Numbered from the stretch's first letter, positions 29,915 through 53,897 are shown. The stretch is 64,000 nucleotides of DNA from Podospora anserina (GCA_017654855.1 CM030332.1:7130001-7194000), one strand, 5' to 3'. The notes: generated from the sequence alone by a model not told the origin. Made by a program: numbers and translations.

Positions 29915-29945
<31 letters not shown>

Positions 29946-30087
29946 CGACGACGATGATGATGATGATGGGAGTAATAAAGGCGAGGACAGAAAAGGCAGC
30001 AGTAGCGCCGACGAGAAAGGAGGAGAGAAAGACGCGGGAAAGAAATCCCCAGGTGACGGAGCGTCCTTTCAGGATGTCGCTCTTTAA
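28753..30087 (+). CDS. CHS5: Exomer subunit Chs5 (N-terminal dimerisation, FN3, BRCT, acidic tail; 423 aa; exons 28753-28824, 28888-30087)
   Basis: MLVSLTVGKVDAGVTVLLT..IEFPSILLP; RNATQTSVVLEWDP (FN3); THKMTDLSGIT; IDTTHFV..IPVVRPEWV (BRCT). Confidence 0.95.
29914..29967 (+). repeat. (GAC/GAT)n trinucleotide tract encoding poly-Asp in Chs5
   Basis: Read directly; about 17 consecutive Asp codons. Confidence 0.9.
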
Positions 30088-37354: not shown

Positions 37355-40300
37355 TTAACGTCTTGGCCCTGGTTTCCGCCTAATAAAGGGGTCGCTCGCT
37401 GGCTTGCGTGCTGGCGGTACCGGTCCCTATTTCATTCATCAGCACTCCCCCTGAACTGGCAGGACACATCTATGACTTACCCTAGATCCGGGCGGGGGTC
37501 CACTAGGCCTCTGACCCTGTCCATTAGGCGGCCCGTTCGGTCTCGGGCCCTGTCCTGGTCCCGGCACATTCGCCACCTGAGGCTGCTGACCCCATTGCTG
37601 CGGACGTGGAGGTTGAGCCGCAGGTGCCCTCTCCGGGGGCGCCAGGCCCAACACCTCCATAGCTGACGGGTCGATGGGTGGCTTCACCGTGGCTGCTCTC
37701 GGCATGACTGGTGGAGCGGCATTCATATTGTGACGCGCCACATTCGCGTTCTGTTGAATCTAATGGTAGAGTGTCAGTCGTCTGCGTTCTTGATTCTTCG
37801 TTTCGTTCCATGTCGATATTCACCTTTTTGGACGGGCGGCCGTCGTCGTTGCTATCGCGCGCCCGCTTCTTTCCTGTTGATCCAACCGTTGGCTGGATAG
37901 TGGGCGGCATGTCATCACGAGGACCGCTTGGGCGACGATATGGCAGGTTGGCTGGAGGCGCATCAGGCATCTCCACATTAGAAGAAGGCACATCAGGCAT
38001 CTCAACATCTTCGGTTGGGCGTGGGCGAGATGGTGCAGGAGGGGGGGCACCCAGCTGTTTAAAGGCGGCAGCTGGCAACTGCGGACCACGGCTGTCCAGC
38101 ATGGCCAGAATGTTACCGGTGGTGTACCGGTCACGCTCCTTGGCGTCCTCAATGAGCTTATTCCAGTATTCACCCTGCTGAAGCGCCCGGGAGTCGCCCA
38201 AAATCCACAGGGATGACTTGGCACGTGTCAGACCGACGTTCATGCGGCGAATATCAGTCATGAAACCGATACCACCAGTCGGGCTGGCACGAACGCAAGA
38301 GAAGATGATGATCTCACACTCACGACCCTGGAACGCATCGGTAGTGTTGAACTCGATCTCCTCTGTAATGCCCTCACCATACTTGTCGGTGAACCTCTGT
38401 CGCAATCTGTGAAGCTGAGCCTTGTAGGGAGTAATGATGCCGATCTTGCCTCTGGCATCGACGTTGCTGTAGTCAGAGCGGAAGCGCTGGTACAGTTTCA
38501 TAGCAACCTTGAGCTCTTCCTCGTTAACCAGGGACTGGTTTTTAGGCCCACGCGATTGCGAACCCTTGACATCAAAGAACCGGTAAGGGCCAAGATAGAC
38601 GCTCTGGTGCCACGGCTGGAGACGCAAGCCTGCCATGTCAGCGCCGTCTTGGAGCAGCCCTTCGTAAAACTCCTTGCTTGGGAACCTGCTGATTTCGGGG
38701 TGCATGCGATACTGCATGTCGAGCAGGTGGACATCTTTGGCGTGGTTCTTTTGCATGCGGACGAACAAGCTCTGGTCGTAGCCGTATCTAGCAGCAGACT
38801 GAGAGAGAACGGTAGGCGGCAGCTGCTTGGGATCACCGACCAGAATGCATTTTGAGCAGCCATACTTGAGCGGAATGAGTGCACTAAGCTCCACACATTG
38901 GGCCGCCTCATCAATGATGACCGTCTCAAACTCGACATTGAGATTCTTGAACATCTCGTGGCCGCTACCGCTCAGTGTGGCACACAAGACCTGAGCTTTG
39001 TCGAGAATTTCTTGCTGAACCTGTCGGCGTTTGATCTCGACCTCACGTTGGAACGTGTTTCCACTGCTCTTGTCGGCCTCGATGCGAGCTCCGATGTGGG
39101 CACGGCGTTTCATCAGGTCGTCGTACTCTCTCTTCAGCTTGTTCATCAACTGATGATCATCGGCAGCTTGAGCAGCATCAAGCTGTGGCCGAAGCTCGGA
39201 GAGTTTGACCTTGATCTCGCCAGCTTCCTTGTGCATTTGCTCGCGGTCGCTGGGTCCACTGCTGTTGATCACCGCTTCCATCCGTGCCTTGACTTGCTCA
39301 TCCAGGGTCACGTCTTTAACACCAGCGTTGATAGCGTCAGTTCGACCGAGACGCAGCACCTCGATCTTGTGGTGGGTTCCGTTCATTGTCTTTACGCCCT
39401 GCTTGAGACGCAAGACCAGCTCATCCACGGCTGCGTTACTGGGGGCACAGACAAGCAGCTTCCTGGCCGGGGCTGTGGTGGGTTTTGCCGTGAGTCCCGG
39501 CCGGGGGATGCTGACGGCACCATTGGAACCCTTGAGAGAGTTCGACAACAGGCAGCCAACCATGGCGACAATGGTTTTAGTCTTGCCCGTACCCGGAGGG
39601 CCCTGTACCAAAGTAAACCCATCATTCTCCTTCGCATTCAAGATGGCCTTTGCTTGCCCAAGATTGAGTTGGTAGTTGTCCATCACCCCTTTGATAGCCT
39701 GATCGCCAAAGTTGAGCATCGGCGACGGCTCAGCCTTGAGAACCTCATCCATCAAGTCATAGTACTGCAAGCTTTCCAGTGCAGCATATTCGCGCTCGAT
39801 TGTGGTCATGTTGGTGATCTTGACCACCGAGAACTCGCTACCCGGAACAAGGGCCTGATGGATTGGATTTCCCCTACCATTCAACCGATAGACAACCTCG
39901 ACGATGTCTTTCTTGTAGGTTGTCTTCCAGATACGAGAAAGACAATGCAACTCCTCCGGTTGGTTCAAGGGATCCTCTCCTCTTGACATCAAAACAATGT
40001 CGCCTTCCGAGAGACCACGGTCTTTGGAAACCGCAGCAGGCACCGAAGCCGTGACCTCGACAAACTTGTCAACCGCCATACGACTCAAAACCTTGATCCC
40101 AAATTGCTTCGAGGTAGTTTCATCCTTGGCCGTCACGAACGACCGCCAGGCTTCATTGATGAGCAGGGGGAAAAACGTTTGCTTGTAGCTGACGGGATCG
40201 TTGTACGTGTTGGAGACTTCCGCACAGCGATACCCATTTGGAGGGTCATTCCCTTCATGAAAAATATCCCATTCAAGAATCGCAAGGTGAAGTGTGTCCA

Positions 40301-43300
40301 TCGGGGGGATCAGACGAGCACGCATATCCTTGGCGGACCGCATGAGCTTGACCTTCTTCACAGGTCCGCGGTTCTTCGCCATCAAGAGCTCAAGACGACG
40401 TTGATCAGCCTCGCTCAAGGTCTTGTTCGCCTTCTTGGCCTTGAGAACAATCACCTCATCATCATCATCCGACTGGTCCTCATCCTCCGAAGACGACCCA
40501 ACCATGATTTCGTCCTTCAACGCCGGGGCATGGTCTTTGCCCTTTGCACCAGCGATGCCTTGCAAACCAGAGCCTTCACCTGCCACAATCTTTGTCGGCG
40601 CACGCAAAGCTCTGGCCTTGGCAATAGCTTCGGCGTCACGCTTGGCCTTCTCGGCCTTCTCCCTAGCTCGTGCCTCCTTGAGAGAGGCCTGCTTTGCAGA
40701 AATAGCGGCTGGACTAAGCACTGTTGGCTGCTTGGGCTTGACAATCTCGGACTTCAGCTGCTCCAGCTTCGACTTGTTCTTGTCATACGTCGGTGTGAGG
40801 CTGAGCAGAGGATCTTTGTAGTCCTTGGAGGTCGCCTTGAAGAAGTCAAGCTTGCTCTGCTTGAGAGCGCGCTCTCTAGCCTCTTTCTCGCCGGGTTTGA
40901 TGCCCATGAACTGCTCCTCGATCACGGCATCCTCTCCGAGAGCCTTGAGTAGTTCAATGCGCTGCTCGTCCGTCAGATTTGTCTTAGTAGGATACTCTGG
41001 CCTGGCGCCATGTGATCGCTTGGCGTCCTTGATCATCTTGCCCAGGTGTAACAAGGTGTTTGGAGGCAGTGCCATGTCCTGCTGCTTCATTCTGGTGATC
41101 AGCTGCTTGACGATCCTGATAATACCAGAGATAAGGTATTGATCACGGAGCTGAAGCATGTCCACCAGCGAGAAAGAATAGAACCGAGGCGGCTCGAGGA
41201 CATCCTTCATGGCGTCTGAGGTCGGGATTCCAGTTTCACTGCTCTCTTGGTGGGTTAGAGCAGAGGCAAGAACACCATCTTGCTCAAACAGCTTGTTGGC
41301 GAGCTCCATGACATCTCGACAAAAGTCCTCCATTACCTTCTTCTCGACCATCTCGTGCCACTTCCTCATCATCCTAAACGAGTGATCGATGGCCCTCCAA
41401 ACACTTCTCCACCAGCTCTTGACGACGGCCCGCTCATCGGCCGTCATGGTCTTGCGTCTCAACTGACCGGACGATGGATCGCAAAGGCCATTCAGTACGA
41501 ACTCACTGCACTGGAGGATGGGGATCATGTGCGTCCAAGGCGCACCTTCACCCTTGTACGCCGAGATGGTTTCAACAGCATTGGTGATAGCTTGCACAAA
41601 CGGCTGGAAATGCCTCTCCACCATCCTTTCAATGGCATCGCTACGAACCATTTCGTCAGTTATGGCCTTGATCAGCTCAAAGCCAGCTTCGCGAATCGCC
41701 TCTTCGCCATGGATGAGCGATGACACGATGGCTTGGATCGTCTTGCCATAATTGGAGCACAGGTTTGCTAGCTCTGACTGCGTAAAGTCGGTCATGCGGT
41801 TCAGGACTTTTCCAATAGCAGCTGTTTGTTGTTGATATCGATTGTTGAATACCTCGTGTTCCTTCTTGAGCTTATCCTTTCGCTTAGGGATGAACTTCTC
41901 GATGGCACGTAGCGGCAGGGTAGCTTGTAGCATAGCTTCTGCCAGTTCGAAATGGCCGAACTGAGAGGGCCAGAGCATCTCAAGAAAAGACTCCCACAGT
42001 TTCCCGGAATCCCTATTCATAATATTTTGGACTGGCCGGCGATCAACTAGGGCCTTCCATTCGATCTCCGTGGCTCGCGCATCAAGGGCCAAAGCTGAGT
42101 GAATAATGGCTATGCCGGCCTTGGAGAGACCGATGTTGTATGTGTCCCCAGGCCTCAGCTTTGCGGCCCCAATGATGACTTCACCATACTGGAGTACTTT
42201 GTTCAGCAGCTGATTGACCGTGATGAGGGATGTCTGTGTGTCGAATGGGTTCTCTGGGTCCAAGAAGCCCTTCAAGCATTCGTGGAGAGCAACCAAGCCC
42301 GAGAGAGTGCAAGTAGCATGTGCTGAGCGGTCGCACGACGGATCCTGCCGAAACGTGCTCAGGAGATGCTGCAAAACAGTGTCGCATGCATCTGAGCGCT
42401 GGATTTGCGGCAGTGAACGAATGAAGGCCATTAGCCAGCCAGCCAATACCGGTACCTTGTCGCCACTGTCACCTCCCGATTCCATCCTCTCGGGCAGAAG
42501 CGAATTGTTCAGGAGCGGACGAAAGCCTGGGCTCATGAAGATTTGCTCCACCAAGGTGCTGGGCGAAAGCTGAGCAAACGCAGCCCAAAACGCTTTGGGT
42601 GCCTTTTCCATGAGACCTCGGAGTCCTTGCAAGACCGACAACAGGGCCTCGTCTGAATCCGTCATCAAGTGCTCCAGGGCAAGAAAATAAATATTGGGCG
42701 AGACCTCCATTGCTCGAAGCCAGTTCACAATTTGTTTCTCGCCCAACAGCCGCAGTATCTTCGAAAAGCCCCGCCAGAATCTGGGTATCTTATCTGGAGT
42801 GTTGCCCCCTCTGCTCATCGAAACCCACAGGATTGACTCTGTCAACCAGGGAGATACGGCCCAATCCCACTCGTCCTGCTTCAAGCTTTCGGGTTCTCGC
42901 CGGTCCCAAGCGGCCTCGGCAAAGTCCCTCTTGTACTTTGACTCGGAGAAGAGAAAGGACGTCATCGATGGAAGCAAACCGCCAGGCAGTTTGGCGGGCT
43001 TCTTACGCTGGGTGTTCTCAAAAACATAGTCAAAGTCCTGGATGCGATCCTTGAACGCAAGATACTTCCAACTGCAGAGTGCCTCGAAGAGAGCCAAGAC
43101 TGCCGAGATGCTGTGCTGGACCAACTTCGTTGTTGTCATCGGACCATTCCTTTCAAGTATATCTCTGGCTTCCTTCAGCCCACGGTCGATGCGTCCCCTG
43201 TCGAAATCGTCCAGGTGGGTTTCCATGACACGGATATGCTCAGGGCGCAGGCATCTACAGCACATTAGAACCAACCTTTGGGTACTCAAGTCCGCCTGAT

Positions 43301-43687
43301 AACTACTTACTCGGGGAGGCGTTGCAGAAAGGGTTCCCGTGCTCGGTGCCAGCGTCGTATGCATGAGTCGCACCGTGTAAGGTATGTTTCAACACGCTCC
43401 TTCCAATTAGGAAGCCATGTGCTCGAGCGCTCTGGCGGGAGTCCCATCAGGAGGCTGAGGTTGTATGATATCTGGAGGCGATGCTTGTAGTCCTCGTTTC
43501 GCTTTTTCTTTTCCTCGACGGACACAGCGCCGCCACCAGACTCGTCGGGCTCATCGGGGAAGTCGAGGTTCTCATAGTCGGTGAGATCATCGTCGTTTAA
43601 TTTCGGGCAGCACAGGTGAGCGTCGGGTGGGAAGTCTTCGAAATCATTGTGCCATTCGATGATGGTCTGTTCGAGATTGCCCTCCAT
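37355..43687 (-). CDS. SEN1: Sen1/senataxin SF1 RNA/DNA helicase (about 2052 aa; exons 43687-43311, 43254-37824, 37759-37481, 37426-37355)
   Basis: Large helical N-terminal region; QGPPGTGKT, LVCAPSNAAVDE, VIIDEAAQ, LVGDPKQLPPTV, QYRMHPEIS, IGIITPYKAQ, TTDAFQGRE, RRMNVGLTRAK; introns 43255-43310, 37760-37823, 37427-37480. Confidence 0.95.
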
Positions 43688-44510
43688 GGCTGCGGTTGGC
43701 TCGACGAGCAACGTCGATGTATCGAACGCTGTACCGATGTGGTTTATTGAAGATTAGGTCAGGCCAGACCATCCATCGGCAACCTGGTGCTAATACTGTC
43801 AAGTTGTTGTGGGGGCATGCAGAGAAGAAAACCCCCGGAGAAAACCAGGGATATCCGGTCAGAGTCAAAGAGAGAAAGAACCAGCAGTGGAAGCCACGGT
43901 CAATCTCTCTAGAAATTTTCTGAGGGAAGCAAATCTGTGCAATGCCAGGTTCTTCACGTGATCCTGGGCAGGTAGCAAGCAAAATGCGCCGACCTGCCAA
44001 ATATTTGCAGTGCGTGGGTGGATTTGATTGCAGCTTCTGGATTTCTGGGGCAGTCGCGAACTTTGAGAAGTTGATCCCACAGCAAGCGCGTCGTGCCGTC
44101 TGTGGAGCACTTTAAGTGGGGCAACAATTAGAACCCCTGCAAAAGCTTGAGGCTTGAGTGGGGTGGGTGACCTAGTGGGGTCCTTTGAACTGTCGTGCCT
44201 GTTAACATCACCAACATTTGGTTACTCCGTAGCACTTCATCACTTCATCAGATCGAGCACCTTGGGTTGACTGGATTGATGTATAAATGAATCATTGGCA
44301 AACTATACGCTATCTGGAAGTTTGGGCCCGTCGTTTCTATACTCCCTATAAACCGATATCATCGGCAACCTTTCGCAACTATGAGAAGCGTCAACATGGT
44401 TGAATCAAATGCTCTCTCGCCGTTTGCAAGCTCATGAAAACCACTGTGTTAATGGCAATGCCACAATCACCCCGGACTGCGATTTAAGCGTCATGATCCA
44501 TGTCGTCCTT

Positions 44511-46952
44511 CTAAATCTCATCCTCATCCTCCATATCAACGTCCTGGTCCTCATTCTCTTCCTCGTCAGCATCCTCTCCGTCATCTTCTTCCACACGATC
44601 CATGCCTTCATCCACATTAGCATCCTCCTCCTCTTGATTGAAACCATCCTCACCCTCATCCTCCTCCTCATCATCATCATCCACATTGTCCTCGCCAATC
44701 TTCCCGTTTTCTTCGTCCTCCTCATCTTCATCCTCCTCCTCCTCCTCATTGGCCATCTCCTCTTTGCTGACCTTCCCCTCCTCATTGGCCTTCTCCTCCT
44801 CGTCAGCCATCTGCTCTGGGCCATGCTGCTCCTCATCTTCATCGTCTGTGCCTTCATCTTCAAATTCCTCTCCCTTGACAGCACCCGAATCTTCCGAATC
44901 CTCGTCCTGTTCTGCTTTCTTTCTCATCTTTCTCGGTTTCTTGGGCGCCGGTGGCTTAGCATCGTCTTTGCTTCGATCGAGCAAATGTTCAAGCGGGCAA
45001 TCGGGGGCCCCAAGCCAGTCCTTGGTGCCGGGCTTGGTGTTCTTCCTGCATTTGAAGCAGGTCTGTCCATGACGAATAAATAACTGGTGTAGCCCGTATT
45101 TTAAATGGTCCGGCACCATAAAATCTCCGTGGCGAAAGACATTGTCAGGGTCAGCCTTGACTGGCGTCCAACCAAGCCAGCGACAAAACTTATGAACATG
45201 GGTATCGACAGCAAAGCACGGCATGCGCAGGCAAAAGAGTGAGACGCAGGCGGCTGTCTTGATGCCAATTCCAGGAAAGCTCACAAACTTTTCCATCGCT
45301 TGGTCTTTGGTCATGGCGTGCATGTAGTCGAGCGAAAGAAGATCGGGGGGAGCGCCATCCTTGTCAGTGTTTTCGGCAGTGCCAGCCTGCTTCATGCGCT
45401 CAAGGTTCTCCTCATACACTTTGTCCAGGATTAACTTGATGTGTTGAGCTTTCTTGGGGCCATTGCCAGAGATTCTGATCGAGTTCACCAGAGCTTGGGG
45501 CGATGAAACCCGCACCTTCTCCCAATCAATACTACCCGCACCGCTTCCCTCTGTACGAATCCCAAAGTCTTTCCCCAAATTTCTGATCGCTGCATCAGCC
45601 ATGGCCATCAAAGTATTACCGCTGATGAGTGTGCGTAAAAGAGCGTCAAGGACACAAGGTACCTCACCGCAACCAGCAATTTCCAGAGAGGCTGTGGGGA
45701 TTCTGTCCGGCTGTTTAACCTCCCCGTGCATCTCCGTCAGGATCCTGTGAACCTCTTCGCAGGCCTCGGGGGTGGGGACTCTTCTGTAGGGATATGGGCT
45801 GTAACCGGGCGTCAACCCATAAGGATTGTTTTGGCCACGCTTGACTTGGGTTCTGTAATCGGGATTCAGAATCTGTGAGGCATCCACCACAATCTTCCCC
45901 AGACTTTTGGTGACGAGGTTGTCCTTCAAGGTGGCCCCTTTGAAGATGATGAGCTTTCGAGTAGTCGCAACAATGCTGGTCTTTTCCTCAGCGACTTCCT
46001 CCTTTTTGGTAACAACAACGGTCTGCTCTGGGATCTTTTCCTCGTACTTGACCACTGTTTGGGCGGTGACAGCAGTACGGGAACGAGTAACCCGGCCAAT
46101 GATCTCTTCTTGGTGTGTGACATGCAGGTTCTCGTCAACAGTCTCGGAGTCACCGACAACTGTTTCTGCCTTAGTGATCCTTGAGGCAGTTTCGACAGCT
46201 ACTTCCTGCTTAACATCTACTTCCAGCTGACTGGATGTCTCTGATTTGCTGTCTTCTTTTGAAGGGGCTTTGGCTTTGGTGACACGATAGCCAATGCGTT
46301 TTTGTCTGGCTGCAGTCTTTGGAGCTGCTTTTCTGGGGGCAGCCCTTCTGCCAGTTGCTTTTCTTGGGGCAGCTCTTTCAGACGGAGATTTGGTTGAAGG
46401 CTGAGCACTCGCGGAAGGTGAGGTTGGTGGCGTCAAAACGATCTCGGGATCTGGGACGGCGGGGTGTTCGTCCGTCTGGAGTTGATCTGCCGGATTGTCT
46501 TCAGAAATGGGCTCGGGTTCACTGCCCACTGAAGTCTTCTCGGTCTCATCTAGGGCAACAGCTGAATTCTGCGTGACCAAACCCATACCATGGGGAAGAA
46601 CCCAACCACCTTTGATCGGCTGAGCGGTCTTCTTGGTCCGACGTGTGCGTTTCGCGGGAGTCTTGGTAGCCAACGGTTCAGCCAACGTCGCTTCAAACTT
46701 GCGCTTGGAGGTGGCAATGTCTGGGGGGGTGATAGGCTCAGTCGATGAGGCAGCGGGAGAATGCGCTGGAGACTTTGCAGGCACTGAATTGCTAGGGGGG
46801 GCGAGTTGGTCAAGAAGTGAAACTCCCGCAATCACAGCATTGTCTTCAGCGCCGGTCGGAGTTTCTCCGGTCGTCTGGAGAATTGGAACAAGAGGGCCTT
46901 CGGCCGCTGCCGCAGCTTGGGCAGCTCGTCTTGCTGCCCCGCGAGTCCGCAT
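44511..46952 (-). CDS. HhH-GPD DNA glycosylase/AP lyase, EndoIII/DEMETER-like (813 aa) with a long disordered N-terminus and an acidic C-terminal tail
   Basis: VLDALLRTLISGNT; IDWEKVR..IRISG..KKAQHIKLILDKV; LSLDYMH..FPGIGIKTAACVSLFCLRMPCFAVDTHVHKFCRWLGW (HhH Lys565 and Asp583, 18 residues apart); LHQLFIRHGQTCFKC..CPL. Confidence 0.92.
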   Translation of the reverse strand: MRTRGAARRAAQAAAAAEGPLVPILQTTGETPTGAEDNAVIAGVSLLDQLAPPSNSVPAKSPAHSPAASSTEPITPPDIATSKRKFEATLAEPLATKTPAKRTRRTKKTAQPIKGGWVLPHGMGLVTQNSAVALDETEKTSVGSEPEPISEDNPADQLQTDEHPAVPDPEIVLTPPTSPSASAQPSTKSPSERAAPRKATGRRAAPRKAAPKTAARQKRIGYRVTKAKAPSKEDSKSETSSQLEVDVKQEVAVETASRITKAETVVGDSETVDENLHVTHQEEIIGRVTRSRTAVTAQTVVKYEEKIPEQTVVVTKKEEVAEEKTSIVATTRKLIIFKGATLKDNLVTKSLGKIVVDASQILNPDYRTQVKRGQNNPYGLTPGYSPYPYRRVPTPEACEEVHRILTEMHGEVKQPDRIPTASLEIAGCGEVPCVLDALLRTLISGNTLMAMADAAIRNLGKDFGIRTEGSGAGSIDWEKVRVSSPQALVNSIRISGNGPKKAQHIKLILDKVYEENLERMKQAGTAENTDKDGAPPDLLSLDYMHAMTKDQAMEKFVSFPGIGIKTAACVSLFCLRMPCFAVDTHVHKFCRWLGWTPVKADPDNVFRHGDFMVPDHLKYGLHQLFIRHGQTCFKCRKNTKPGTKDWLGAPDCPLEHLLDRSKDDAKPPAPKKPRKMRKKAEQDEDSEDSGAVKGEEFEDEGTDDEDEEQHGPEQMADEEEKANEEGKVSKEEMANEEEEEDEDEEDEENGKIGEDNVDDDDEEEDEGEDGFNQEEEDANVDEGMDRVEEDDGEDADEEENEDQDVDMEDEDEI

Positions 46953-49730
46953 GGTGATGATGATACGTGAGAGAATTGACAAGTTGTTGCGAAGACTAAG
47001 AGGAGAAGGTCAGCACGAGATCGAGGAGTTTTGCATAAAGTTTTCAACATGTATTGATAGGCTTTTGTGAGACTTGTGTTCGTCGAGATGCCTGGTCGGT
47101 CGGTTTGCCCGATAGAGCTTCGCTGTGCTCGATATTCCCACTCTGGGGTATGTGAGAAGTCTCTGAGGCAAGAGAAAGGGAGGAAGTTTTCACAACCCCT
47201 CCAGGAGTGAGAGAACTCAAGATGTATAGACCGATAAGAAACAGGTCCTGGAAATCCCAGAGCAAATCGGCCGCCCCACCTGCCGTGAGGTGGCTTGCCC
47301 GATAAAGCTTCGTTCTTTCCGTCCGAGACCAATTCACCAGCCAGATTACCGCCGAGACTAGCGGTATTACAGTGCGGCTGATACTGCAGAGTTTTCATTC
47401 AGGAGTGGCTAGGCAGGAGCGATAAGGTACAAAACATCGGACGGACCTGAGTTCTCGGCCAGTTGTTGGTAGAAGCTGGATCTCTATTGTGAATACAGGC
47501 AGGAGCGAGGGCTTCCACAAGATAACAAGATGGAAAGCCCTTCGAAGCACTGAGAATACCCGTCGAAAGCCATGGACGGAATTTGAGCCTGCTTGCCCGG
47601 TGGTGGGAGTATGGTATATAGAAGAGTACTGGTGGTTCAAATGTCTGGAGTAGGGGGCCAATGTGTTGCGTATGTTGGGCCTTGAAGCATGAATCCGGCG
47701 CAGGAAGATGTCATCTAAAGTCTGAATAGTCTTCCTATGACTTGAAAATGGTGTGTAATCAACTTTGTGGTGAATGATCCTTTACTCTCTCTAAAGCACA
47801 CACCAACCCGAGCTGCTGAAGTCACGAGATGGAATGAGACATGCGAGTAGTATGGCAAACAACGGTAAATTGACTTGGTGAATCGATCATGTTATTATTC
47901 TACTCTTTGATGGGAGTCATAATTACTTAATACAACATCGTTTGAACCTGGACAAAATCTGTTAGTCAAATGGCCAACACATAGAAGTGGTACAAAGGTG
48001 TGATTTTGTATGTTGTTGTTCAGCGATGGATATTTTCTCCGCACAAACAGTCTCGGCAGTCAAGGTTTTGTCATATCGTAGAGTCATCAGGCAACAAGGA
48101 AAATGTCATAGAGAGGGTGACTTACTCAAAGATTATTTATATTGTCGCTGTGTGTGACATCGAGTTCCGTGAACTGGGTGAGGATGGGTGAGGATAGCAA
48201 AGAAAGTTGAAGCAATTTTCAAGCTCCAAAATTGCTGCAGGCTGCGAGGGATTATTTTTCTTGGGTGGAGCATGCGGAAAGCCGGGAACAGTTTCCCCGT
48301 GCACTCCACTCAAGCTGAAACAACCCTAACCCATTGGTCTTCCCAGTGACGTAACCAACTAAGTTCTGGATCTGTTGACAAACATCAGCCCCTGAATGCG
48401 ACTATCTTCAAATTCCGCAGCGGCACAAGTTGTGGAACATGGTTTTCCATAGAGTAATGATACTGACCGGCTATCTGAGCTATCTATCTTCTTTCTGTGA
48501 TACACCTTCTCTTTTTCGTGGCTGCCCTGAAGCGGGAAATTGCCCACCCCTTGCCGACGCTCGGACCATATCACGCTGCTCCGACAACCACTTCCACCAC
48601 TTCGACACAGGTGGATGGCTCACCGGTTGTCCTTGTCTGAGACCCTCACTTTACCCTATAATGGAAATATCGACATCTTGTTGATAAAGAGCACAGCAGA
48701 TGGCCATGATCTTTGATTGTCCCAATGAGTTTGATACAGTGGAGGTGGGGGACGCTGCCCATCTCATGGCGGCCGACCCCCTACCGAGCTCTTCCGCAAC
48801 ATCATGGGAATTATGACAGAACGTTCCGTCACAGTGGTGCTCTTACTAGTTCAAATAACCTTGAGCCAGTAGGGTTTCCTTCACGGAGCTATGAAGTTCA
48901 CTATTCAAGCATCCAGGTCCAATTGGCTGAGAGACTCTCCCTATCACTGACCTCTCCAGCTCCAAGTGCCCTACGGACTCAGCAAGTGAGCCGACCCCTG
49001 TTGAGTACTCCGTCGTCGAACCAACCCAGATACAATTCTACGACTTTGCGACTCGAGCACTTCCTGCCTCACCACCCCTCAAAATCACTGACCACTCAGC
49101 TTCGCCCACCAAATCCTCATCTGCGTCCATTTCACCACCGCTCAGCACACTGCCCTGCCAGCAGCCTTGCCTTTTACAAGTCCTTATCTCTGGTAAGAAA
49201 GTTTCTGGCAGATTCGCTTCCTTATCACACAATCTGGAAGTCCAAGCTCCCGCTCTGGATCAGTATCTGTCGAGCAAGCAAATGTGTGAGTGGGCTAGCG
49301 GTTGCCCTTATCCTTCTTGCTCCTTCTTCCCATTCACTTCTTATTGTGCCGCGCCTTTCACTATCAAGTGAATAAGAGATAAGGGCCTTTTTCTTTGCAG
49401 TCAATAGGACCCAACAATTATTTATTGTTTGCTCTCCTCGACCGAAAGCACCGCTATATATTTGCCCTCCCCCCCCCAAAACAAAAGACTTTTAACTAGC
49501 AGCCGATCTTCTCAATTCCTATTTTGAGCTTCCTTCTCTGACAACCAAAAGCAGCTATACGAGCAGATCAAGCATCAGAGCTCCCTTTTTGACTTGTAAG
49601 CTATCGTTTCAAGACTCCGCTTCATTTTCGGCAACCTCAACTGACCCAGCTGAACAGCCGTCATAGACCTTTAGCCGCTTAGAATACTCACTTGTCACAA
49701 TTTTCAAGTTGTTGTTACTCACACAAAAAA

Positions 49731-51989
49731 ATGGCCGAAATTTACAACCCGGGGTCGGTGTCACAGCCACTCGTGATTGATGACGACGATGGCTATGAGT
49801 CGTTGTCAGGTATCAAGCATGAGCTTGAGGAGGGTCATCTTCTTCTCGAAGAAAGATTCGACGTCGACGATGTTTTCGAAGTCGACGAGTACGGCAACGA
49901 GGTCAACCCTTTTGAGGAGTTGGACCAGGAGTACCGGGCCGAGGGCCGACTGGAGGGCGACTTGTACGAGGTAATCGACCTTACCGAAGATGCCGACGAC
50001 AACTCGGCAACTTCACGGCCAAGGACGGCGACAGCCAGCGATGAGGACATTCTCCAATACTGGACACTGGACGACGGGCTTCTTCTTACGCCACACATGA
50101 CGGTGGAGCTCCGACCTTCCGTGGACCAAGAGGCAATCGAGTTTCTCCGTATCCTCTCCATCGTGAAGATTACCGAGCCTGAACGAACTTTCGCCGTGCT
50201 CCGCGGCTGGGGCTTCCGCAGGAGCCGGAACTTCCAAGGCTGCCTCCCCAAGAAGCTGAACGAGGTTTGCTTGATCGCCAAGATGAAAACCTCAGACAAG
50301 CGGGGTTGGATGGAGCAAGCCCTCATCGACGTGGATCCCAGGCAGGTGATGATGCTCAGGGATCTCCGGATGACCAATGCCGACTTCCCAGATTACCGGT
50401 TCAACGCTAACGAATATCACCGGCTGGGCAAGGAGATGATCAAGGAGTCTGGGCCTCTCGTCTGCCGGTGGAGGAAAGAGGAGCACCGCCATCCGAGGAC
50501 GAAAGCCGCCTGCGAGTTCGCCTTTGTCAGGCTAAGCGAGGATGAGGTTGATGACCGATACCGAGTGAAGGACGCACAGATGGTGAACAGGTGGAGAGGG
50601 GGCGTTGTCCCTGGTGGCTCACACATCCCCAACAGGGACAGCCCCGGTCTAGTTCTCGACCTCGAGGACGAAGGGTCAGAACAGGCCAGTGATCTCCAGC
50701 CCGGGCAGCGCTATACTGCCGCGGATATTTTCGCCGGTGCGGGTGGCGCCTCGCGGGGTATCGAGCGCTCCGGTTGCCGACTTCTGTTTTCTCTCGACCA
50801 CTGGGAGCCCGCCGCGAGGTCCCTCCGTCGCAATTTCCCCGGCACGCATATCTACCAAAAAGAGGTAACCGACTTTGTGACCGAAGATCTCCCGCCCGAG
50901 CATTCCTACCCGGACATCCTCCACCTCTCCCCTCCGTGTCAGTTCTGGTCCCCGGCTCACACCGTCGCCGGGAAAGATGACGAGAAGAACATCGCTGTCC
51001 TCTTCAGCTGCACCGACCTCATCAAGAAGCTCCGGCCCAGGGTTTTCACGGTGGAGCAAACATTCGGTCTCGTCCACGATCGTTTCCGTCTGTATTTCCA
51101 CACCTTCCTGCAAGGTTTCACCTCGCACGGGTACTCCCTCAGGTACAAAATCCTCCACCTGAACCAGTACGGCCTCGCCCAAACCCGTCGCCGGCTGGTC
51201 ATCATCGGTGCTGGGCCAGGCGAGAAGCTTCCCCCGTTTCCTCCCCCTACCCACTCCAAAACACCCGAGGTCGACGGCCTGAAGCCTGTCGTGACCCCCT
51301 ACCAAGCGTTGTTGGCGATCAAGCGTATCAAAAGCGGCCATCCGATGCACAATCTGGCCACCGTTCATCGGTTTGACCCGCCCAAGCGCCCTTGGGATCC
51401 GAGCAAGCCGGTCAACACGATCACCTGCTCTGGCGGCCAGAATTACCACTGGTTGGGGGAGAGGCAATTCACTGATCTGGAATATGCTGTGCTGCAGGGG
51501 TTTCCACGCTGGCATCAGTTTTCCGAAACCAATGTCAAGAAGCAGATCGGCAATGCTTTCGCGCCGTCGGTGGTGAGGGTGCTATACGAGCATCTCATCC
51601 GCTTTTTGAGGAAGCAGGACGGGGTGGCTGGGAGCAACTTACCTCCTTCGTCCTCGTCGGGTGACAGTTCCCCTATTGCAATCCCAGACTCGGACGAGGA
51701 GAGGGACGAGCTCCAGTTTCTGGGGCTGGGCGGCCTGGGCACAAAGGACCAGCCGATGAAGTTGGATGATGAGGAGGTGGAGTACCTGGGGGAGTCCGCG
51801 AGGGGGTGGTCAGCAACGATGACTGGACGGTGGGACGGAAGGAGGGAGGGGGTTGGCAGGCGGACGAGGTGTGAGGCCCGGAGGTATGAAGTTGATGCGG
51901 ACGGGTGGCCGGAGTATAGGGAGGAGGACTTTATGGAGTTGGATGCGGGGACGATGCAGGACCCAGTGGTTATTGATTGGGAGACGTGA
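49731..51989 (+). CDS. rid: RID/Masc1-family C5-cytosine DNA methyltransferase (752 aa, intronless)
   Basis: Motif I DIFAGAGG, motif IV SPPCQ (Cys403), motif VI EQT (RID/Masc1 hallmark replacing ENV), motif VIII QTRRRL, motif IX LEYAVLQGFP, motif X KQIGNAFAP. Confidence 0.96.
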   Translation: MAEIYNPGSVSQPLVIDDDDGYESLSGIKHELEEGHLLLEERFDVDDVFEVDEYGNEVNPFEELDQEYRAEGRLEGDLYEVIDLTEDADDNSATSRPRTATASDEDILQYWTLDDGLLLTPHMTVELRPSVDQEAIEFLRILSIVKITEPERTFAVLRGWGFRRSRNFQGCLPKKLNEVCLIAKMKTSDKRGWMEQALIDVDPRQVMMLRDLRMTNADFPDYRFNANEYHRLGKEMIKESGPLVCRWRKEEHRHPRTKAACEFAFVRLSEDEVDDRYRVKDAQMVNRWRGGVVPGGSHIPNRDSPGLVLDLEDEGSEQASDLQPGQRYTAADIFAGAGGASRGIERSGCRLLFSLDHWEPAARSLRRNFPGTHIYQKEVTDFVTEDLPPEHSYPDILHLSPPCQFWSPAHTVAGKDDEKNIAVLFSCTDLIKKLRPRVFTVEQTFGLVHDRFRLYFHTFLQGFTSHGYSLRYKILHLNQYGLAQTRRRLVIIGAGPGEKLPPFPPPTHSKTPEVDGLKPVVTPYQALLAIKRIKSGHPMHNLATVHRFDPPKRPWDPSKPVNTITCSGGQNYHWLGERQFTDLEYAVLQGFPRWHQFSETNVKKQIGNAFAPSVVRVLYEHLIRFLRKQDGVAGSNLPPSSSSGDSSPIAIPDSDEERDELQFLGLGGLGTKDQPMKLDDEEVEYLGESARGWSATMTGRWDGRREGVGRRTRCEARRYEVDADGWPEYREEDFMELDAGTMQDPVVIDWET

Positions 51990-52599
51990 TTGACTTTTGG
52001 CAGGAGAGTGGATTTGTCTGAGTGTTGTACATAGAGCCTATTCTTTCAACAAGCTGGCATGTTATTGGCGATCTTATGAAGCAAGGAGTTACGCGGGTAG
52101 GCTAGATGTTTGTCATGAGCGAGGAGTTGGGTGGGAGGAGGTTTCGAGGTTTGTGGTCTCTTAAGCTGTCATTGTATTTTATATCAGGCAAGCGAGCATC
52201 AAAGTACAGCATTTCCATTGGTACAGGCAGAGTCCGTAAACACAGTATGCACTCTATTCCTCTTGTATTGTACTACAAATCTCAGTTCGCTACGGTGACA
52301 TGTTCAATCTTGGCCCAACTGCCACCCATCAACTTTTCCTACGCCCAAAGTATCAGCAGTATTACCTCTTTTCTCCAAACCAACCCCTGAACTAATGTTC
52401 AACAGATGAAGCATGCCTGTCCTCTGAATGTGAACACCCGCCAAAACTCCTGCCGCTTCCCAAACTGGCTACCCAAGAAACCCGAGACACCGCCAACACA
52501 AACTTCCCAAAGTTCAATATCCCAAACCAAGACACCAAAGACAAGAAGAAAGCAAATACAGCATATCTTAATCAAAGCTACCCCTGTTCAGAATTTGGC

Positions 52600-53897
52600 T
52601 CACTCCTCCTCGCTTACCTCACTCTCGTTACCTCTGTCGTTCTCATCCATCTCCCCAAAGGCTGCCTCAAGCTCCGCCTCCAAATCACCCTGCATCGGAT
52701 CCACCTCGGCTTCCTCATCTTCATCTGACGAGCCCACATCAAAAGTGTACTTTTCAGGTTCCTCCACCGGCACTCTAGGCTGAGAATCGTAGCTCGAAAC
52801 CGGAGCACTCGGAGCCGGCGCCACCTCCTCAAAATCATACTCCTCGTCCTCGTCTGACTCCTCGCGAAGTTGCTGAAAGTGCCGGAAGTCTTCCTCGTGA
52901 TTATGCTCTTCCTCTTCTTCGTAGGCGCCCTTGCCAAACTCTGAAAAGCGTCTATTGAGAGACGCAGCAGGCTGGAAAGTCGTAGGCGGTGGGGGCTTGG
53001 CGTCGGGATATTCGATTGTGAGACCAAAATCATCATCGTCGTCGTCCTCATCATCCTCGTCATCATCGACTTTCTTCTTTGGTGGTGGTACTTCACGCTT
53101 CTTCTCAGGAACAGATGGCATGGGAAGAGATGGTGCGGCGGGCGGGGCGGCGTTGGGATCCGGTAGAAAGAGAGCTTCCGCCCCCTTCTTTTCCACTTTG
53201 CCCTTTCCTTTACCCTTGGCCTCTGGCGTATTCTTTGCTGCTGGTGTGTTTTTGGCCGCGGCGCCTCTGGCTGCCGGCTTGGCCTTGGCTGGAGGGTCCT
53301 CTTTGAGTTTGGATGCCGCCGCTTTCGAGGCTGCCGCCTTGCCCTTCGCTTGTGTTGGCGGCGGCTTGGAACCAGAGGCAGCAGATGAACCGCCATTCTT
53401 GATCTCCAGTTGGGGGAACTTCTCTCGTAATGTTTCCACATTATCCGTTGGCGTCCTTGTCAGATTCATGTGGAACATGGAATCGACGCGGTGCAGTATG
53501 AAGGCCTGGCGCGTGGGATCGAATATGAGGGTATAGTTGTTGTCTTCGGCGGTTCGTACGCCATTGTATTGATATCTGTCGCCCTTGTCGTCGAAGCCAA
53601 TGTTGTAGGAACCGTCTTTGGCCGACTTCTTGAGATGGGCCGTGTTCGGAGCTGTGTCTGACGAGAGCGTTGGTCGGTGGTTATCTGCAAACGAGATATT
53701 GTTAGCACGATTGGTGGTAAACGCACGCTGCTGTTGTCGGGTGGCTGCCTTGCTGAACCAGACCAGCAGAGTAGGGGTCTTTTTTGGTTCCGCTTACACC
53801 GAATGCCTGTGTATGTTTCCTTGGATGGCTTCCCCAGCAGCTCAGGACTGAGGAGTACTGGGTATTTTCCCACCTTTGTGGGGTCGATAGCAGCCAT
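52600..53897 (-). CDS. EAF (ELL-associated factor) N-terminal-domain transcription elongation protein (394 aa; exons 53897-53798, 53684-52600)
   Basis: GKYPVLLSPELL..YTGIR/YNHRP..YQYNG..YTLIFDPTRQAFILHRVDS fits the EAF pattern; acidic tail ending ESEVSEEE; intron 53685-53797 (GTAAGC..CTAAC..CAG). Confidence 0.82.

What the first reader, a model, noticed from the sequence alone, without database searches (positions are those of the whole stretch)
44511..51989. Head-to-head pair: RID cytosine methyltransferase and a DEMETER-like DNA glycosylase/lyase (candidate writer/excision module)
Seen in sequence: rid (ATG 49731, +) and an HhH-GPD glycosylase (ATG 46952, -) are immediate divergent neighbours. 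They share a 2.8-kb upstream region containing no convincing gene. The glycosylase keeps the HhH Lys565 and catalytic Asp583 at the 18-residue spacing of bifunctional EndoIII/DME enzymes. By eye its core (IDWEKVR..IRISG..LSLDYMH..DQAMEKFVSFPGIGIKTAACVSLFCLRMPCFAVDTHVHKFCRWLGWTP) aligns with the DEMETER/ROS1 core as I recall it (LDYEAIR..IKERG..IDLEWLR..DKAKDYLLSIRGLGLKSVECVRLLTLHNLAFPVDTNVGRIAVRMGWVP). Established: RID/Masc1 proteins mediate RIP (C-to-T mutation of repeats) or MIP and are needed for sexual development in several species. Their methylated product has been hard to detect and the step from cytosine to thymine is unexplained. DME/ROS1 excise 5mC and T:G mismatches. Inference: the neighbour may process RID products (5mC, T:G or U:G), either keeping RID methylation transient, protecting unique DNA, or shaping RIP outcome. 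This would parallel the bacterial dcm-vsr and archaeal methyltransferase-Mig pairs. I know of no description of this coupling, but adjacency alone does not prove function.
Basis: partly seen in the sequence, partly recalled or inferred. Interest (0 to 1): 0.85.

Follow-up and report, generated by a model that had tools for sequence, protein, structure and literature searches.

The report
RID methyltransferase beside ROS1-related DNA glycosylase
A fungal gene for the RID cytosine methyltransferase sits back-to-back with a gene for an uncharacterised DNA-repair glycosylase related to plant demethylases, and this old neighbourhood suggests, but does not prove, that the two enzymes work on the same cytosines.

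Summary
A 752-aa RID gene (49731-51989, +) and an 813-aa HhH-GPD glycosylase gene (44511-46952, -) are divergent neighbours. The window matches what is published for Podospora anserina PaRid. The 2.8-kb spacer is not empty. RNA contigs show two long spliced 5' leaders starting about 200 bp apart. An intron in the spacer holds a conserved candidate box C/D snoRNA.

The glycosylase belongs to a single-copy, Pezizomycotina-wide family. It keeps the lyase Lys and catalytic Asp but lacks the canonical Fe-S motif. Its nearest solved relatives are Deinococcus EndoIII-1, then ROS1.

Linkage with RID holds in all Sordariales that could be compared, and in 8 of 15 informative distant fungal contigs spanning five class-level clades. 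In most of the distant clades a housekeeping ADE4 gene lies between the two genes. ADE4 and an aldehyde dehydrogenase gene are kept about as often as RID. Synteny alone therefore cannot separate functional coupling from an inherited block. RID is, however, the only neighbour kept where that block broke up.

Five bacterial relatives are glycosylase-C5-methyltransferase fusions. They are a precedent, not sister sequences.

Functional coupling is plausible (about 0.4) and untested. I found no prior description.

The parts
44511..46952 (-). Intronless CDS of the HhH-GPD glycosylase/AP-lyase candidate (813 aa). It has a disordered basic N-terminal half, a conserved core and an acidic D/E tail.
   Evidence: The ORF is. 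An RNA contig spans 44289-47637 without a splice in the CDS (X8 record 18). Family assignment rests.
44931..45860 (-). Conserved catalytic core, residues 365-674. It contains K565 (45258-45260) and D583 (45204-45206). It also contains the invariant Cys residues C428, C632, C635 and C652, spaced C...C-x2-C-x16-C.
   Evidence: Alignments are; coordinates. The AlphaFold model has pLDDT 84.3 and pTM 0.82. Motif counts across 366 family proteins are.
46581..46610 (-). Short conserved N-terminal motif GGWVLPHGMG (residues 115-124) inside an otherwise variable tail. It is a possible docking motif.
   Evidence: The consensus is. The motif is present in 91 of 120 Sordariomycete-centred homologues, 23 of 127 representatives and 0 of 119 Eurotiales homologues.
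46996..47446 (-). Intron in the 5' leader of the glycosylase mRNA. Its acceptor lies 43 nt upstream of the ATG.
   Evidence: A joint 46995/47447 with CT..AC ends appears in RNA contigs of 2 of 4 runs (table 5).
47946..48123 (-). Upstream (-) strand intron that hosts the snoRNA candidate. The flanking exons are 47447-47945 and 48124 to about 48197.
   Evidence: A joint 47945/48124 with CT..AC ends appears in 3 of 4 runs. Fragments carrying adapter sequence end at 48178 and 48197 (tables 5 and 7).
48015..48095 (-). Candidate box C/D snoRNA. It has a C box TGATGA at 48084-48089, a D box CTGA at 48020-48023 and a 4-bp terminal stem.
   Evidence: The sequence was read. A 57-nt block is 79% identical to the L004 spacer (E 2e-8). 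The C box, a 13-nt block and the D box are kept in L004 and L002 on the glycosylase strand. There is no Rfam match at E<=1, so the call rests on motifs and conservation only.
48198..48402 (.). Inferred bidirectional promoter region, about 205 bp between the outermost ends of the two divergent transcripts. It contains a CCAAT motif.
   Evidence: The (-) strand fragments end at 48178/48197. RID-leader contigs from two studies begin at 48403 and 48404 (tables 7 and 8). Contigs do not prove transcript starts, so this is an inference.
48403..49730 (+). RID 5' leader, about 904 nt when spliced. It has two introns (49192-49553 and 49596-49657) and 11 upstream ATGs.
   Evidence: GT..AG joints appear in 3-4 of 4 runs (table 5).
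49731..51989 (+). Intronless RID (PaRid-type) C5 cytosine methyltransferase CDS, 752 aa. Motif I DIFAGAGG is at 50724-50747, motif IV PPCQ at 50931-50942 and EQTFG at 51054-51068. A poly(A) tail starts at about 52223.
   Evidence: RNA contigs span 49658-52222, and a poly(A) loose end lies at 52223.

Best explanation
Shown here:
- The window carries the RID (PaRid-type) methyltransferase gene.
- A single-copy gene for a bifunctional HhH-GPD DNA glycosylase/AP lyase is transcribed divergently from it. The two transcripts start about 200 bp apart.
- The glycosylase belongs to a Pezizomycotina-wide family related to Deinococcus EndoIII-1 and plant ROS1. NCBI names one member 'At3g47830-like'.
- The two genes have been linked since early Pezizomycotina, inside an old block ordered RID <- -> ADE4 -> glycosylase -> (aldehyde dehydrogenase).
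- In Sordariales, and independently in one Dothideomycete-like contig, the genes between them left. RID and the glycosylase then became direct head-to-head neighbours.

Inferred mechanism:
- The glycosylase flips out and excises a cytosine-derived base made or promoted by C5-methyltransferases: T or U opposite G after deamination, or 5mC itself.
- It then nicks the abasic site through a Lys565 Schiff base, starting base excision repair.
- It would act as the repair or erasure counterpart of RID, and probably of fungal C5-methyltransferases in general. It could limit off-target damage, keep RID methylation transient, or shape RIP outcome.
- In Sordariales the compact bidirectional promoter could add co-regulation.

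Substrate, timing and any dependence on RID are untested.
For: 1. Gene identities and catalytic residues are established. K565 and D583 are invariant. The K-18-D motif is present in 337 of 366 family proteins.
2. Among solved structures, ROS1 ranks just after Deinococcus EndoIII-1. ROS1 structures include complexes with 5mC and T:G DNA. By sequence profile the values are 2.6e-20 and 2e-14. By fold they are 7.6e-9 and 5e-7.
3. NCBI names an Aspergillus lentulus member 'putative DNA glycosylase At3g47830'. Two papers treat At3g47830 as an uncharacterised fifth DME/ROS1 paralogue (PMC10573277 and PMC9257373, passages).
4. Linkage holds in every Sordariales genome that could be compared.
   - Of 7 species with comparable locus or protein numbers, 5 pairs differ by one and 2 differ by two. 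Examples are CTHT_0012470/0012460, N0V88_003557/003556, N0V85_002233/002234, OQA88_7281/7282 and CHGG_06516/06518.
   - Accessions are consecutive in N. hispaniola and in one N. tetrasperma strain.
   - About 30 further named species have both proteins on contigs of identical length, some only 48-200 kb.
   - No species present in both lists contradicts the linkage.
5. Direct DNA evidence comes from the metagenome contigs. RID lies upstream on the opposite strand in 8 of 15 informative unique distant contigs. These fall in five class-level clades on the family tree.
6. RID is the only ancestral neighbour still present where the block broke up, in Sordariales and in L018.
7. RNA contigs from 4 studies contain both transcripts. 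The outermost transcript ends are about 205 bp apart.
8. Precedent exists in bacteria. Five bacterial relatives are single-ORF fusions of this type of glycosylase domain, with K and D kept, to a C5-methyltransferase.
Against: 1. Housekeeping neighbours are kept about as well as RID. ADE4 is present in 6 of the same 15 contigs. An aldehyde dehydrogenase gene is present in 6, and an unknown gene Y in 5. In the probable ancestral order ADE4 separates the pair. Block-level inheritance therefore explains most of the synteny.
2. Seven of 15 informative contigs have no RID within 10 kb. Whether those genomes have RID at all is unknown.
3. The family extends to Basidiomycota-like contigs with no RID nearby. 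Its nearest other Atlas clusters are from plants. The enzyme is therefore not RID-specific.
4. The closest solved relative is an EndoIII, a class that acts on oxidised pyrimidines (recalled). This fits a general repair role.
5. The bacterial fusions are not the sister group of the fungal family. The scan that found them was also limited to a shared motif pattern.
6. There are no expression time-course data for the glycosylase. Contig depths cannot rank genes.
7. Neighbours of RID could look 'suggestive' in many ways. The Sen1 helicase gene, for example, is also adjacent. The coincidence is therefore less striking than it first seems.
Confidence: 0.42

Rival explanations
1. This is inherited microsynteny only. 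The glycosylase is a general base-excision enzyme, for example for oxidised or ring-damaged pyrimidines, and has no special link to cytosine methylation. It sits near RID because both belong to a slowly rearranging ancestral block (CHS5-like, RID, ADE4, glycosylase, aldehyde dehydrogenase). Local rearrangements in Sordariales then happened to bring the two together.
For: - ADE4 lies between the two genes in L009, L012/L013 and L022, with fragments in L016 and L024.
- ADE4, the aldehyde dehydrogenase and gene Y are kept in 6, 6 and 5 of the contigs, against 8 for RID.
- A CHS5-like gene next to RID in L024 also lies in the window at 28543-30084. This indicates a large old block.
- The best solved relative is an EndoIII.
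- The family is single-copy, follows the species tree and is more conserved than RID. Its core is 42-49% identical between classes, against 27-44% for RID. This is typical of a housekeeping enzyme.
- The family occurs in Basidiomycota-like contigs without RID.
Against: - RID is the only neighbour retained after two independent break-ups of the block, in Sordariales and in L018.
- The chance that one of roughly ten glycosylase genes lies within a few genes of RID is well under 1% (my estimate, not computed).
- The nearest characterised eukaryotic relatives are 5mC/T:G glycosylases.
- Fungi already have canonical Nth/Ntg enzymes for oxidised pyrimidines (recalled, not checked in this genome).
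Confidence: 0.38
2. The pair is co-regulated without any biochemical coupling. In Sordariales the ~200-bp bidirectional promoter and the long uATG-rich leaders tie the expression of both genes, and of the hosted snoRNA, to the same chromatin or developmental state. The enzymes act on unrelated substrates. Selection acts on the shared regulatory region rather than on a joint pathway.
For: - The outermost ends of the divergent transcripts are about 205 bp apart.
- Both leaders are long, spliced and rich in uATGs, with 11 and 8.
- A conserved element is kept in the spacer in three Sordariales-like genomes.
- Direct adjacency holds across Sordariales.
Against: - The shared promoter is derived. In other classes ADE4, not the glycosylase, is RID's divergent partner.
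- In one RNA assembly (X8) the glycosylase transcript is assembled in full while RID is fragmentary. In X1 and X4 RID is assembled in full. This is only a weak hint of non-parallel expression, because contig depth cannot rank genes.
- PaRid peaks sharply 12 h after fertilisation (10.1101/2024.12.09.627484, passages). No such report exists for its neighbour.
Confidence: 0.12
3. The glycosylase-like protein is not an active enzyme. It would be a base-flipping reader of modified or mismatched cytosines, comparable to the inactive EndoIII sensor domains of bacterial END nucleases. It would recruit other factors through its long disordered tails.
For: - The window protein's Pfam score is below threshold.
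- The metal site is non-canonical.
- The protein has very long basic and acidic low-complexity tails and a conserved short N-terminal motif.
- Sensor use of EndoIII domains is described in PMC12191111 (passages).
Against: - The catalytic Lys and Asp are invariant across classes. They are present in 337 of 366 family proteins. This argues for retained catalysis.
Confidence: 0.05

Closest known systems
RID / Masc1 / DmtA family (PaRid, Pa_1_19440, of Podospora anserina)
   Same: The protein is 752 aa, as published for PaRid (PMC6709928). PF00145 is its only domain. Motifs I and IV (PPCQ) are present. Named relatives are 'RIP defective'.
   Different: Nothing differs. This part of the finding is already known. 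What is new is the transcript structure seen here: a leader of about 900 nt with two introns.
Arabidopsis ROS1 / DEMETER 5mC DNA glycosylase-lyases (PDB 7yho, 7yhp, 7yhq)
   Same: It shares the HhH-GPD fold and the Lys and Asp 18 residues apart. ROS1 is the second-best solved relative by sequence profile (2e-14) and by fold (5e-7).
   Different: The canonical C-x6-C-x2-C-x5-C Fe-S motif is absent (0 of 366). It is replaced by C...C-x2-C-x16-C. No DME accessory domains were detected. The conserved core is only about 310 aa. Substrate is unknown.
Deinococcus radiodurans Endonuclease III-1 and III-3 (PDB 4unf, 4uob)
   Same: These are the best solved relatives by sequence (2.6e-20) and by fold (7.6e-9, TM 0.72-0.80 on the target).
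   Different: They are bacterial proteins of about 250 aa without tails. I recall that they carry the canonical Fe-S cluster, which I did not check here. Sequence identity is 21-25%.
Arabidopsis At3g47830, an uncharacterised short DME/ROS1 paralogue
   Same: NCBI names an Aspergillus lentulus member of the fungal family after it. Plant HhH-GPD clusters of about 290 aa are the nearest non-fungal Atlas neighbours of the Basidiomycota-like subfamily. It lacks the DME accessory domains (PMC10573277).
   Different: I could not fetch or align the plant protein, so the relationship is name-level only. Neither protein has been characterised.
Bacterial methyltransferase-plus-repair modules: dcm-vsr and M.MthTI-Mig.MthI (recalled), and the EndoIII-like/C5-MTase fusions found here (L046, L047, L050, L051, L052)
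   Same: A C5 cytosine methyltransferase is genetically coupled to an enzyme able to act on its deamination product. The fusions carry the same K/D glycosylase signature and are 26-36% identical to the fungal core.
   Different: - The fungal genes are separate and divergently transcribed, and in many lineages a third gene lies between them.
- The fusions are not sister to the fungal family.
- Three of the five fusions show the canonical Fe-S spacing.
- L052 lies beside an HNH nuclease and a 1919-aa helicase. Its role may therefore be defence rather than repair.
- Mig, MutY and MBD4 gave no profile hit at E<=1.

Membership tests
RID/Masc1/DmtA fungal C5-methyltransferases | C5-MTase catalytic domain with motif I (FxGxG) and motif IV (PCQ) | tested here: met
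   PF00145 hits at 2.1e-40. DIFAGAGG and PPCQ are present.
RID/Masc1/DmtA fungal C5-methyltransferases | No BAH, RFTS or chromo accessory domains, plus a RID-specific N-terminal region conserved among orthologues | tested here: met
   PF00145 is the only Pfam hit. Residues about 110-313 align to the RID genes of distant contigs. Several residues in this region are invariant (F138, G159, R164, N177 and others).
RID/Masc1/DmtA fungal C5-methyltransferases | Orthology to experimentally studied RID proteins | tested here: met
   Best named hits are 'RIP defective' (Neurospora) and 'DNA methylase essential for RIP'. The length matches PaRid.
HhH-GPD superfamily, bifunctional EndoIII-type glycosylase/lyases | HhH-GPD fold | tested here: met
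   The AF2 model has pLDDT 84.3. Foldseek probability is 1.00 to EndoIII-1/3, ROS1, Bst EndoIII and NTHL1. Pfam PF00730 is below cutoff for the window protein (23.1 against 26.2). It is above cutoff for the L018 orthologue (32.8).
HhH-GPD superfamily, bifunctional EndoIII-type glycosylase/lyases | Lyase Lys in the HhH motif and catalytic Asp 18 residues later | tested here: met
   K565 and D583 are present. They are invariant. The motif occurs in 337 of 366 family proteins.
HhH-GPD superfamily, bifunctional EndoIII-type glycosylase/lyases | Glycosylase and AP-lyase activity | not testable with these tools
   This needs an enzyme assay.
EndoIII/Nth proper and DME/ROS1: [4Fe-4S] cluster loop | Canonical C-x6-C-x2-C-x5-C motif (spacing recalled) | tested here: not met
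   The motif is present in 0 of 366 fungal family proteins. Instead, 341 of 366 have HG..C-x2-C...C[PV][LI], together with an invariant remote Cys (C428). The canonical spacing is present in 3 of the 5 bacterial fusions. Whether the fungal Cys4 site binds Fe-S or Zn is unknown.
DEMETER/ROS1 family | Accessory domains flanking the glycosylase domain (domain A, and a C-terminal domain with permuted CXXC and an RRM-like fold; recalled) | tested here: not met
   There is no Pfam hit other than HhH-GPD at E<=0.01 over the 813 aa. Outside the 310-aa core only a 10-aa motif is conserved.
DEMETER/ROS1 family | Excision of 5-methylcytosine | not testable with these tools
   This needs an enzyme assay.
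Mig / MutY / MBD4 mismatch glycosylases | Sequence membership | tested here: not met
   No chain of these families appears among the 51 PDB sequences hit by the family profile at E<=1.
Methyltransferase-repair gene module (dcm-vsr type) | Linkage conserved beyond background synteny | tested here: inconclusive
   RID is linked in 8 of 15 informative contigs and in all comparable Sordariales. ADE4 (6), the aldehyde dehydrogenase (6) and gene Y (5) are kept similarly. RID alone persists after two break-ups of the block.
Methyltransferase-repair gene module (dcm-vsr type) | The repair enzyme acts on the methyltransferase's product or its deamination product | not testable with these tools
   This needs biochemistry and genetics.

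The most novel reading that the evidence does not exclude
RID and this glycosylase form an ancient eukaryotic writer/excision module that predates the split of the Pezizomycotina classes. On this reading the glycosylase is the missing downstream enzyme of RID biology. It would either process RID-made cytosine intermediates, and so set RIP frequency and spectrum and the RID-dependent step of sexual development. Or it would be the long-sought active 5mC demethylase of filamentous fungi. Its plant (At3g47830-like) and basidiomycete relatives would then do the same job for other C5-methyltransferases.
Probability: 0.15. Interest if true: 0.9.

Novelty: new variant of a known kind. Interest (0 to 1): 0.6.

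Why it matters
How RID turns cytosine into thymine in RIP is unresolved. So is why RID is needed for sexual development in Podospora, Trichoderma and Ascobolus (PMC12366691 and PMC6709928, passages).

Whether fungi have an active DNA demethylase is also open. Recent papers on Neurospora, Magnaporthe and Trichoderma raise a DNA glycosylase as the possible agent, but none names a candidate gene (PMC13001447, PMC4338423 and PMC11381340, passages).

This finding gives one concrete single-copy candidate. Its catalytic residues are invariant, and orthologues exist in the genetic models Podospora and Neurospora and in Aspergillus. Both questions become testable with ordinary knockouts and in vitro assays.

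If the tests are negative, the family is still an uncharacterised, widely conserved repair enzyme with an unusual metal site. The locus would also remain a clear example of how old block synteny can mimic a functional gene pair.

Tried and rejected
- The window's whole genome is not held. Co-occurrence and paralogue checks in the same genome were therefore impossible.
- A genome-contig scan with the fungal profile found no relative. I did not use the second scan.
- Predicted complex of RID residues 100-650 with the glycosylase core: no verdict, score 0.00. This is neither for nor against binding.
- The look-up of sequencing runs listed no holder on record as RNA. Four runs guessed to be RNA nevertheless gave spliced, adapter- and poly(A)-bearing contigs.
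- Rfam found no family in the spacer. The only hit was a chance mir-67 match at E 0.99.
- I rejected the idea that the bacterial glycosylase-MTase fusions are the closest prokaryotic kin of the fungal family. On the tree they are no closer than non-fused EndoIII-like sequences, and long branches make the deep nodes unsafe.
- Mig, MutY, MBD4 and AlkA membership: no profile hit at E<=1.
- Literature:
  - No paper holds Pa_1_19430, 19435, 19420 or 19450.
  - NCU02033 appears only in a mutation list, and NCU02035 nowhere.
  - Searches combining RID or RIP with glycosylase, DEMETER or HhH-GPD found no description of the pair.
  - A search for glycosylase-methyltransferase fusions found only unrelated work.
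  - One search term was malformed and was resent corrected.
- Supplementary tables are closed. The P. anserina time-course tables of 10.1101/2024.12.09.627484 may hold the neighbour's expression profile, and I could not see them.
- I could not obtain the N. crassa OR74A locus tag of the glycosylase. The cluster listing gave other strains only.
- Linkage outside Sordariales within Sordariomycetes (Xylariales, Hypocreales, Glomerellales) could not be tested. The two truncated homologue lists shared no such species.


Full report
OBSERVATION

The two ORFs are exactly as described. An 813-aa ORF lies on the minus strand at 44511-46952. A 752-aa ORF lies on the plus strand at 49731-51989. Their start codons are 2,778 bp apart and they face away from each other.

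The plus-strand protein has a C5 cytosine methyltransferase domain (PF00145, 2.1e-40). It carries motifs DIFAGAGG and PPCQ. Its named relatives are 'RIP defective' or 'DNA methylase essential for RIP' proteins of Sordariales. Its length equals that published for PaRid, Pa_1_19440 (PMC6709928, passages). The closest named relatives of both proteins are Triangularia, Cercophora and Apiosordaria, at 76-91% identity. I infer that the window is Podospora anserina or something very near it.

WHAT THE GLYCOSYLASE IS

The minus-strand protein scores below the Pfam threshold for HhH-GPD (23.1 against 26.2 bits). Other evidence makes it a clear member of that superfamily.
- A profile of 15 orthologues hits Deinococcus EndoIII-1 at 2.6e-20 and ROS1 at 2e-14. 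It hits EndoIII-3 at 9e-12, Clostridium Ogg at 3e-8, Bacillus EndoIII at 6e-8 and E. coli Nth at 8e-7. No Mig, MutY, MBD4 or AlkA chain appears among 51 hits at E<=1.
- An AlphaFold model of the 310-aa core (pLDDT 84.3, pTM 0.82) gives the same order by Foldseek.
- Lys565 and Asp583 are 18 residues apart. They are invariant in alignments of 15, 23 and 30 sequences. The motif occurs in 337 of 366 family proteins.

The canonical Fe-S spacing C-x6-C-x2-C-x5-C (spacing recalled) occurs in 0 of 366 family proteins. Instead, 341 of 366 have C-x2-C followed by a distant C[PV][LI], together with an invariant N-terminal Cys (C428). No DEMETER accessory domain is detectable.

The protein therefore works like a bifunctional EndoIII/ROS1-type enzyme but is not a DEMETER-family member. 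NCBI names one Aspergillus lentulus member 'putative DNA glycosylase At3g47830'. Two papers describe At3g47830 as an uncharacterised fifth DME/ROS1 paralogue that lacks accessory domains (PMC10573277 and PMC9257373, passages). I could not align the plant protein myself.

The family is large, with 720 representatives at 50% clustering scoring E<=1e-30. It looks single-copy and its tree follows fungal class phylogeny. A sister subfamily is Basidiomycota-like, and its nearest other Atlas clusters are from plants.

THE SPACER

RNA assemblies from four studies contain both genes. These runs were only guessed to be RNA, but they show splice joints, adapters and a poly(A) tail.
- RID mRNA. The leader starts at or before 48403, and contigs from two studies begin at 48403 and 48404. 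It has two GT..AG introns (49192-49553 and 49596-49657), an intronless CDS and a poly(A) tail at about 52223.
- Glycosylase mRNA. It ends near 44221-44289 and has an intronless CDS. One leader intron spans 46996-47446. A further minus-strand intron spans 47946-48123, and fragments end at 48178 and 48197.

The '2.8-kb upstream region' is therefore mostly two long leaders. The RID leader is about 904 nt with 11 uATGs. The glycosylase leader is about 616 nt with 8 uATGs. The outermost ends are about 205 bp apart. From this I infer a compact bidirectional promoter, although contigs do not prove transcript starts.

Inside the upstream minus-strand intron lies an 81-nt candidate box C/D snoRNA (48015-48095). 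It has TGATGA and CTGA boxes and a terminal stem. The boxes and a 13-nt block are kept in two other Sordariales-like contigs on the glycosylase strand. Rfam has no match.

LINKAGE IN SORDARIALES

Seven species have comparable locus or protein numbers for both genes. Five pairs differ by one and two differ by two. Accessions are consecutive in Neurospora hispaniola and in one N. tetrasperma strain, and two apart in the other strain.

About 30 further named species have both proteins on contigs of identical length, several only 48-200 kb. No species present in both lists contradicts the linkage. Three metagenome contigs (L002/L003 and L004) show the pair directly, head-to-head, 2.4-3 kb apart.

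LINKAGE BEYOND SORDARIALES

One metagenome scan with the family profile returned 80 loci. I counted loci of the Pezizomycotina-type clade that have at least 5 kb upstream of the glycosylase, and collapsed duplicates (L002/L003 and L012/L013). L018/L019 and L020/L021 are also duplicate pairs, of which only L018 and L020 met the 5-kb criterion. This leaves 15 informative loci.
- Eight have a RID orthologue upstream on the opposite strand: L002, L004, L009, L012, L016, L018, L022 and L024.
- Seven have none within 10 kb on either side: L007, L008, L010, L014, L020, L028 and L042.
- L005 and L015, with 4-5 kb upstream, also show none. Eight other loci are too short to judge.

The RID hits include the RID-specific N-terminal region.

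On the family tree, and by nearest named proteins, the linked loci fall in five clades:
- Sordariales.
- A Eurotiales-like clade: L009 with Penicillium and Aspergillus (support 100/98).
- A Lecanoromycetes-like clade: L012, L016 and L024 with Mycoblastus (99/100).
- A Dothideomycetes-like clade: L018 with Coniothyrium (95/95).
- The deep-branching L022.

THE CONTROL THAT WEAKENS THE CASE

In L009, L012/L013 and L022 an intact amidophosphoribosyltransferase gene (ADE4; Pfam GATase plus Pribosyltran) lies between RID and the glycosylase. It is on the glycosylase strand. L016 and L024 hold only fragments of it. L008 and L005 have ADE4 followed by the glycosylase, with no RID seen.

JGI and Atlas labels of some Eurotiales and Ascomycota glycosylases as 'amidophosphoribosyltransferase' point to the same adjacency.

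An all-against-all comparison of neighbouring ORFs gives these counts within 10 kb of the glycosylase:
- RID: 8 unique loci.
- ADE4: 6.
- An aldehyde dehydrogenase: 6.
- An unknown gene Y: 5.

The denominators differ, because several loci have short downstream flanks. L024 also has a CHS5-like gene beside RID that lies at 28.5-30 kb in the window.

The likely ancestral state is therefore a block: (CHS5-like) RID <- -> ADE4 -> glycosylase, then Y and the aldehyde dehydrogenase. The direct head-to-head arrangement is derived.

Against that, none of ADE4, the aldehyde dehydrogenase or Y is in the 64-kb window or in L018. RID is thus the only ancestral neighbour that stayed with the glycosylase through two independent break-ups of the block.

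BACTERIAL PRECEDENT

Five of the ten best non-fungal loci from the scan are single ORFs without internal stops: L046, L047, L050, L051 and L052. Each joins an EndoIII-like domain, with Lys and Asp kept, to a C5-methyltransferase. Three of them have the canonical Fe-S spacing.

This shows that nature couples this kind of glycosylase to C5-methyltransferases. Three caveats apply.
- The scan was limited to two peptide patterns.
- The fusions are not sister to the fungal family.
- L052 lies beside an HNH nuclease and a 1919-aa helicase, so a defence role is possible.

MECHANISM AND ODDS

Shown:
- Gene identities.
- Invariant catalytic residues.
- Transcript structures.
- Old linkage.

Inferred: the enzyme excises a cytosine-derived base (T or U opposite G, or 5mC) and nicks the abasic site through Lys565. 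It would serve as the repair or erasure counterpart of RID and probably of other fungal C5-methyltransferases.

I put this at about 0.42. Plain inherited synteny with a general repair role is about 0.38. Co-regulation without biochemical coupling is about 0.12. A non-catalytic reader role is about 0.05.

PRIOR KNOWLEDGE AND NOVELTY

RID itself is well known. I found no paper describing the neighbour or the pairing. Three papers leave open whether a glycosylase mediates fungal demethylation.

I rate the finding as a new variant of a known kind: the methyltransferase-repair pairing, here in eukaryotes. Interest is 0.6.

Noticed in passing
window 48015-48095 (-); L004 about 5874-5960 (+); L002 about 7840-7925 (+): Candidate box C/D snoRNA inside a minus-strand intron (47946-48123) upstream of the glycosylase. 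It has a C box TGATGA, a D box CTGA and a 4-bp terminal stem. A 13-nt block AAACCTTGACTGC is invariant in three Sordariales-like genomes. RNA depth is high over this bin in two runs. Rfam has no match. A TATAAATA motif lies about 50 nt upstream of the C box, so independent transcription is also possible.
   Followed up: partly
window 46953-49730: Both divergent genes have unusually long, spliced, uATG-rich 5' leaders. RID's is about 904 nt with 11 uATGs and two introns. The glycosylase's is about 616 nt with 8 uATGs and two introns. This suggests translational or developmental control.
   Followed up: partly
L009 7083-8845; L012 6877-8537; L022 2685-4508; L008 6341-8128; L005 377-2116; fragments at L016 4990-5688 and L024 6164-6546: An amidophosphoribosyltransferase (ADE4/PurF-type) gene lies immediately upstream of the glycosylase in several fungal classes. 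In two Lecanoromycetes-like contigs only degraded fragments remain. Several public gene models label the glycosylase itself 'amidophosphoribosyltransferase', probably through merged or mislabelled models.
   Followed up: partly
L046, L047 (986-2713), L050, L051, L052 (2679-4454): A bacterial family of single-ORF fusions joins an EndoIII-like glycosylase domain to a C5 cytosine methyltransferase. The MTase parts are 52-58% identical to that of L052. In L052 the fusion sits between an HNH endonuclease gene and two unknown ORFs followed by a 1919-aa DEAD-box helicase gene. This looks like a defence island.
   Followed up: partly
window 46581-46610 (-), residues 115-124: A short motif GGWxLPHGMG is conserved in the otherwise variable N-terminal tail. 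It occurs in Sordariomycetes and in Leotiomycetes-like and some deeper lineages, but is absent from all 119 Eurotiales homologues examined. It may be a partner-docking motif.
   Followed up: partly
window 37527-43753 (-): A Sen1-type RNA/DNA helicase gene (SEN1_N, AAA_11/12) lies directly downstream of the glycosylase. It has a 56-nt intron at 43255-43310, seen in RNA contigs. This neighbour is kept in L001, and in another orientation in L015.
   Followed up: partly
window 44511-44930 (-): The last 120 or so residues of the glycosylase are an almost pure D/E tail. This gives a GC skew of -0.52 over 44500-44999, and part of it (44642-44756) was skipped as a repeat when reads were laid. Orthologues in Chaetomiaceae and Neurospora are 200-250 aa shorter.
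   Followed up: no
window 46362 and 43990: Two single-base differences separate RNA contigs from the window. T>C at 46362 occurs in two runs and is absent in a third. On the glycosylase mRNA it is A>G at a third codon position. C>T at 43990 occurs in two runs. Strain polymorphism is the simplest reading. A-to-I editing cannot be judged without DNA from the same strains.
   Followed up: no
window 52233-53500 (-): The gene just beyond RID's poly(A) site encodes an acidic, low-complexity protein with a sub-threshold Cdc27-like Pfam hit. Its RNA contigs have far higher word depth (46-344) than either gene of the pair. Its 3' end lies within about 10 nt of RID's poly(A) site, in convergent orientation.
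   Followed up: no
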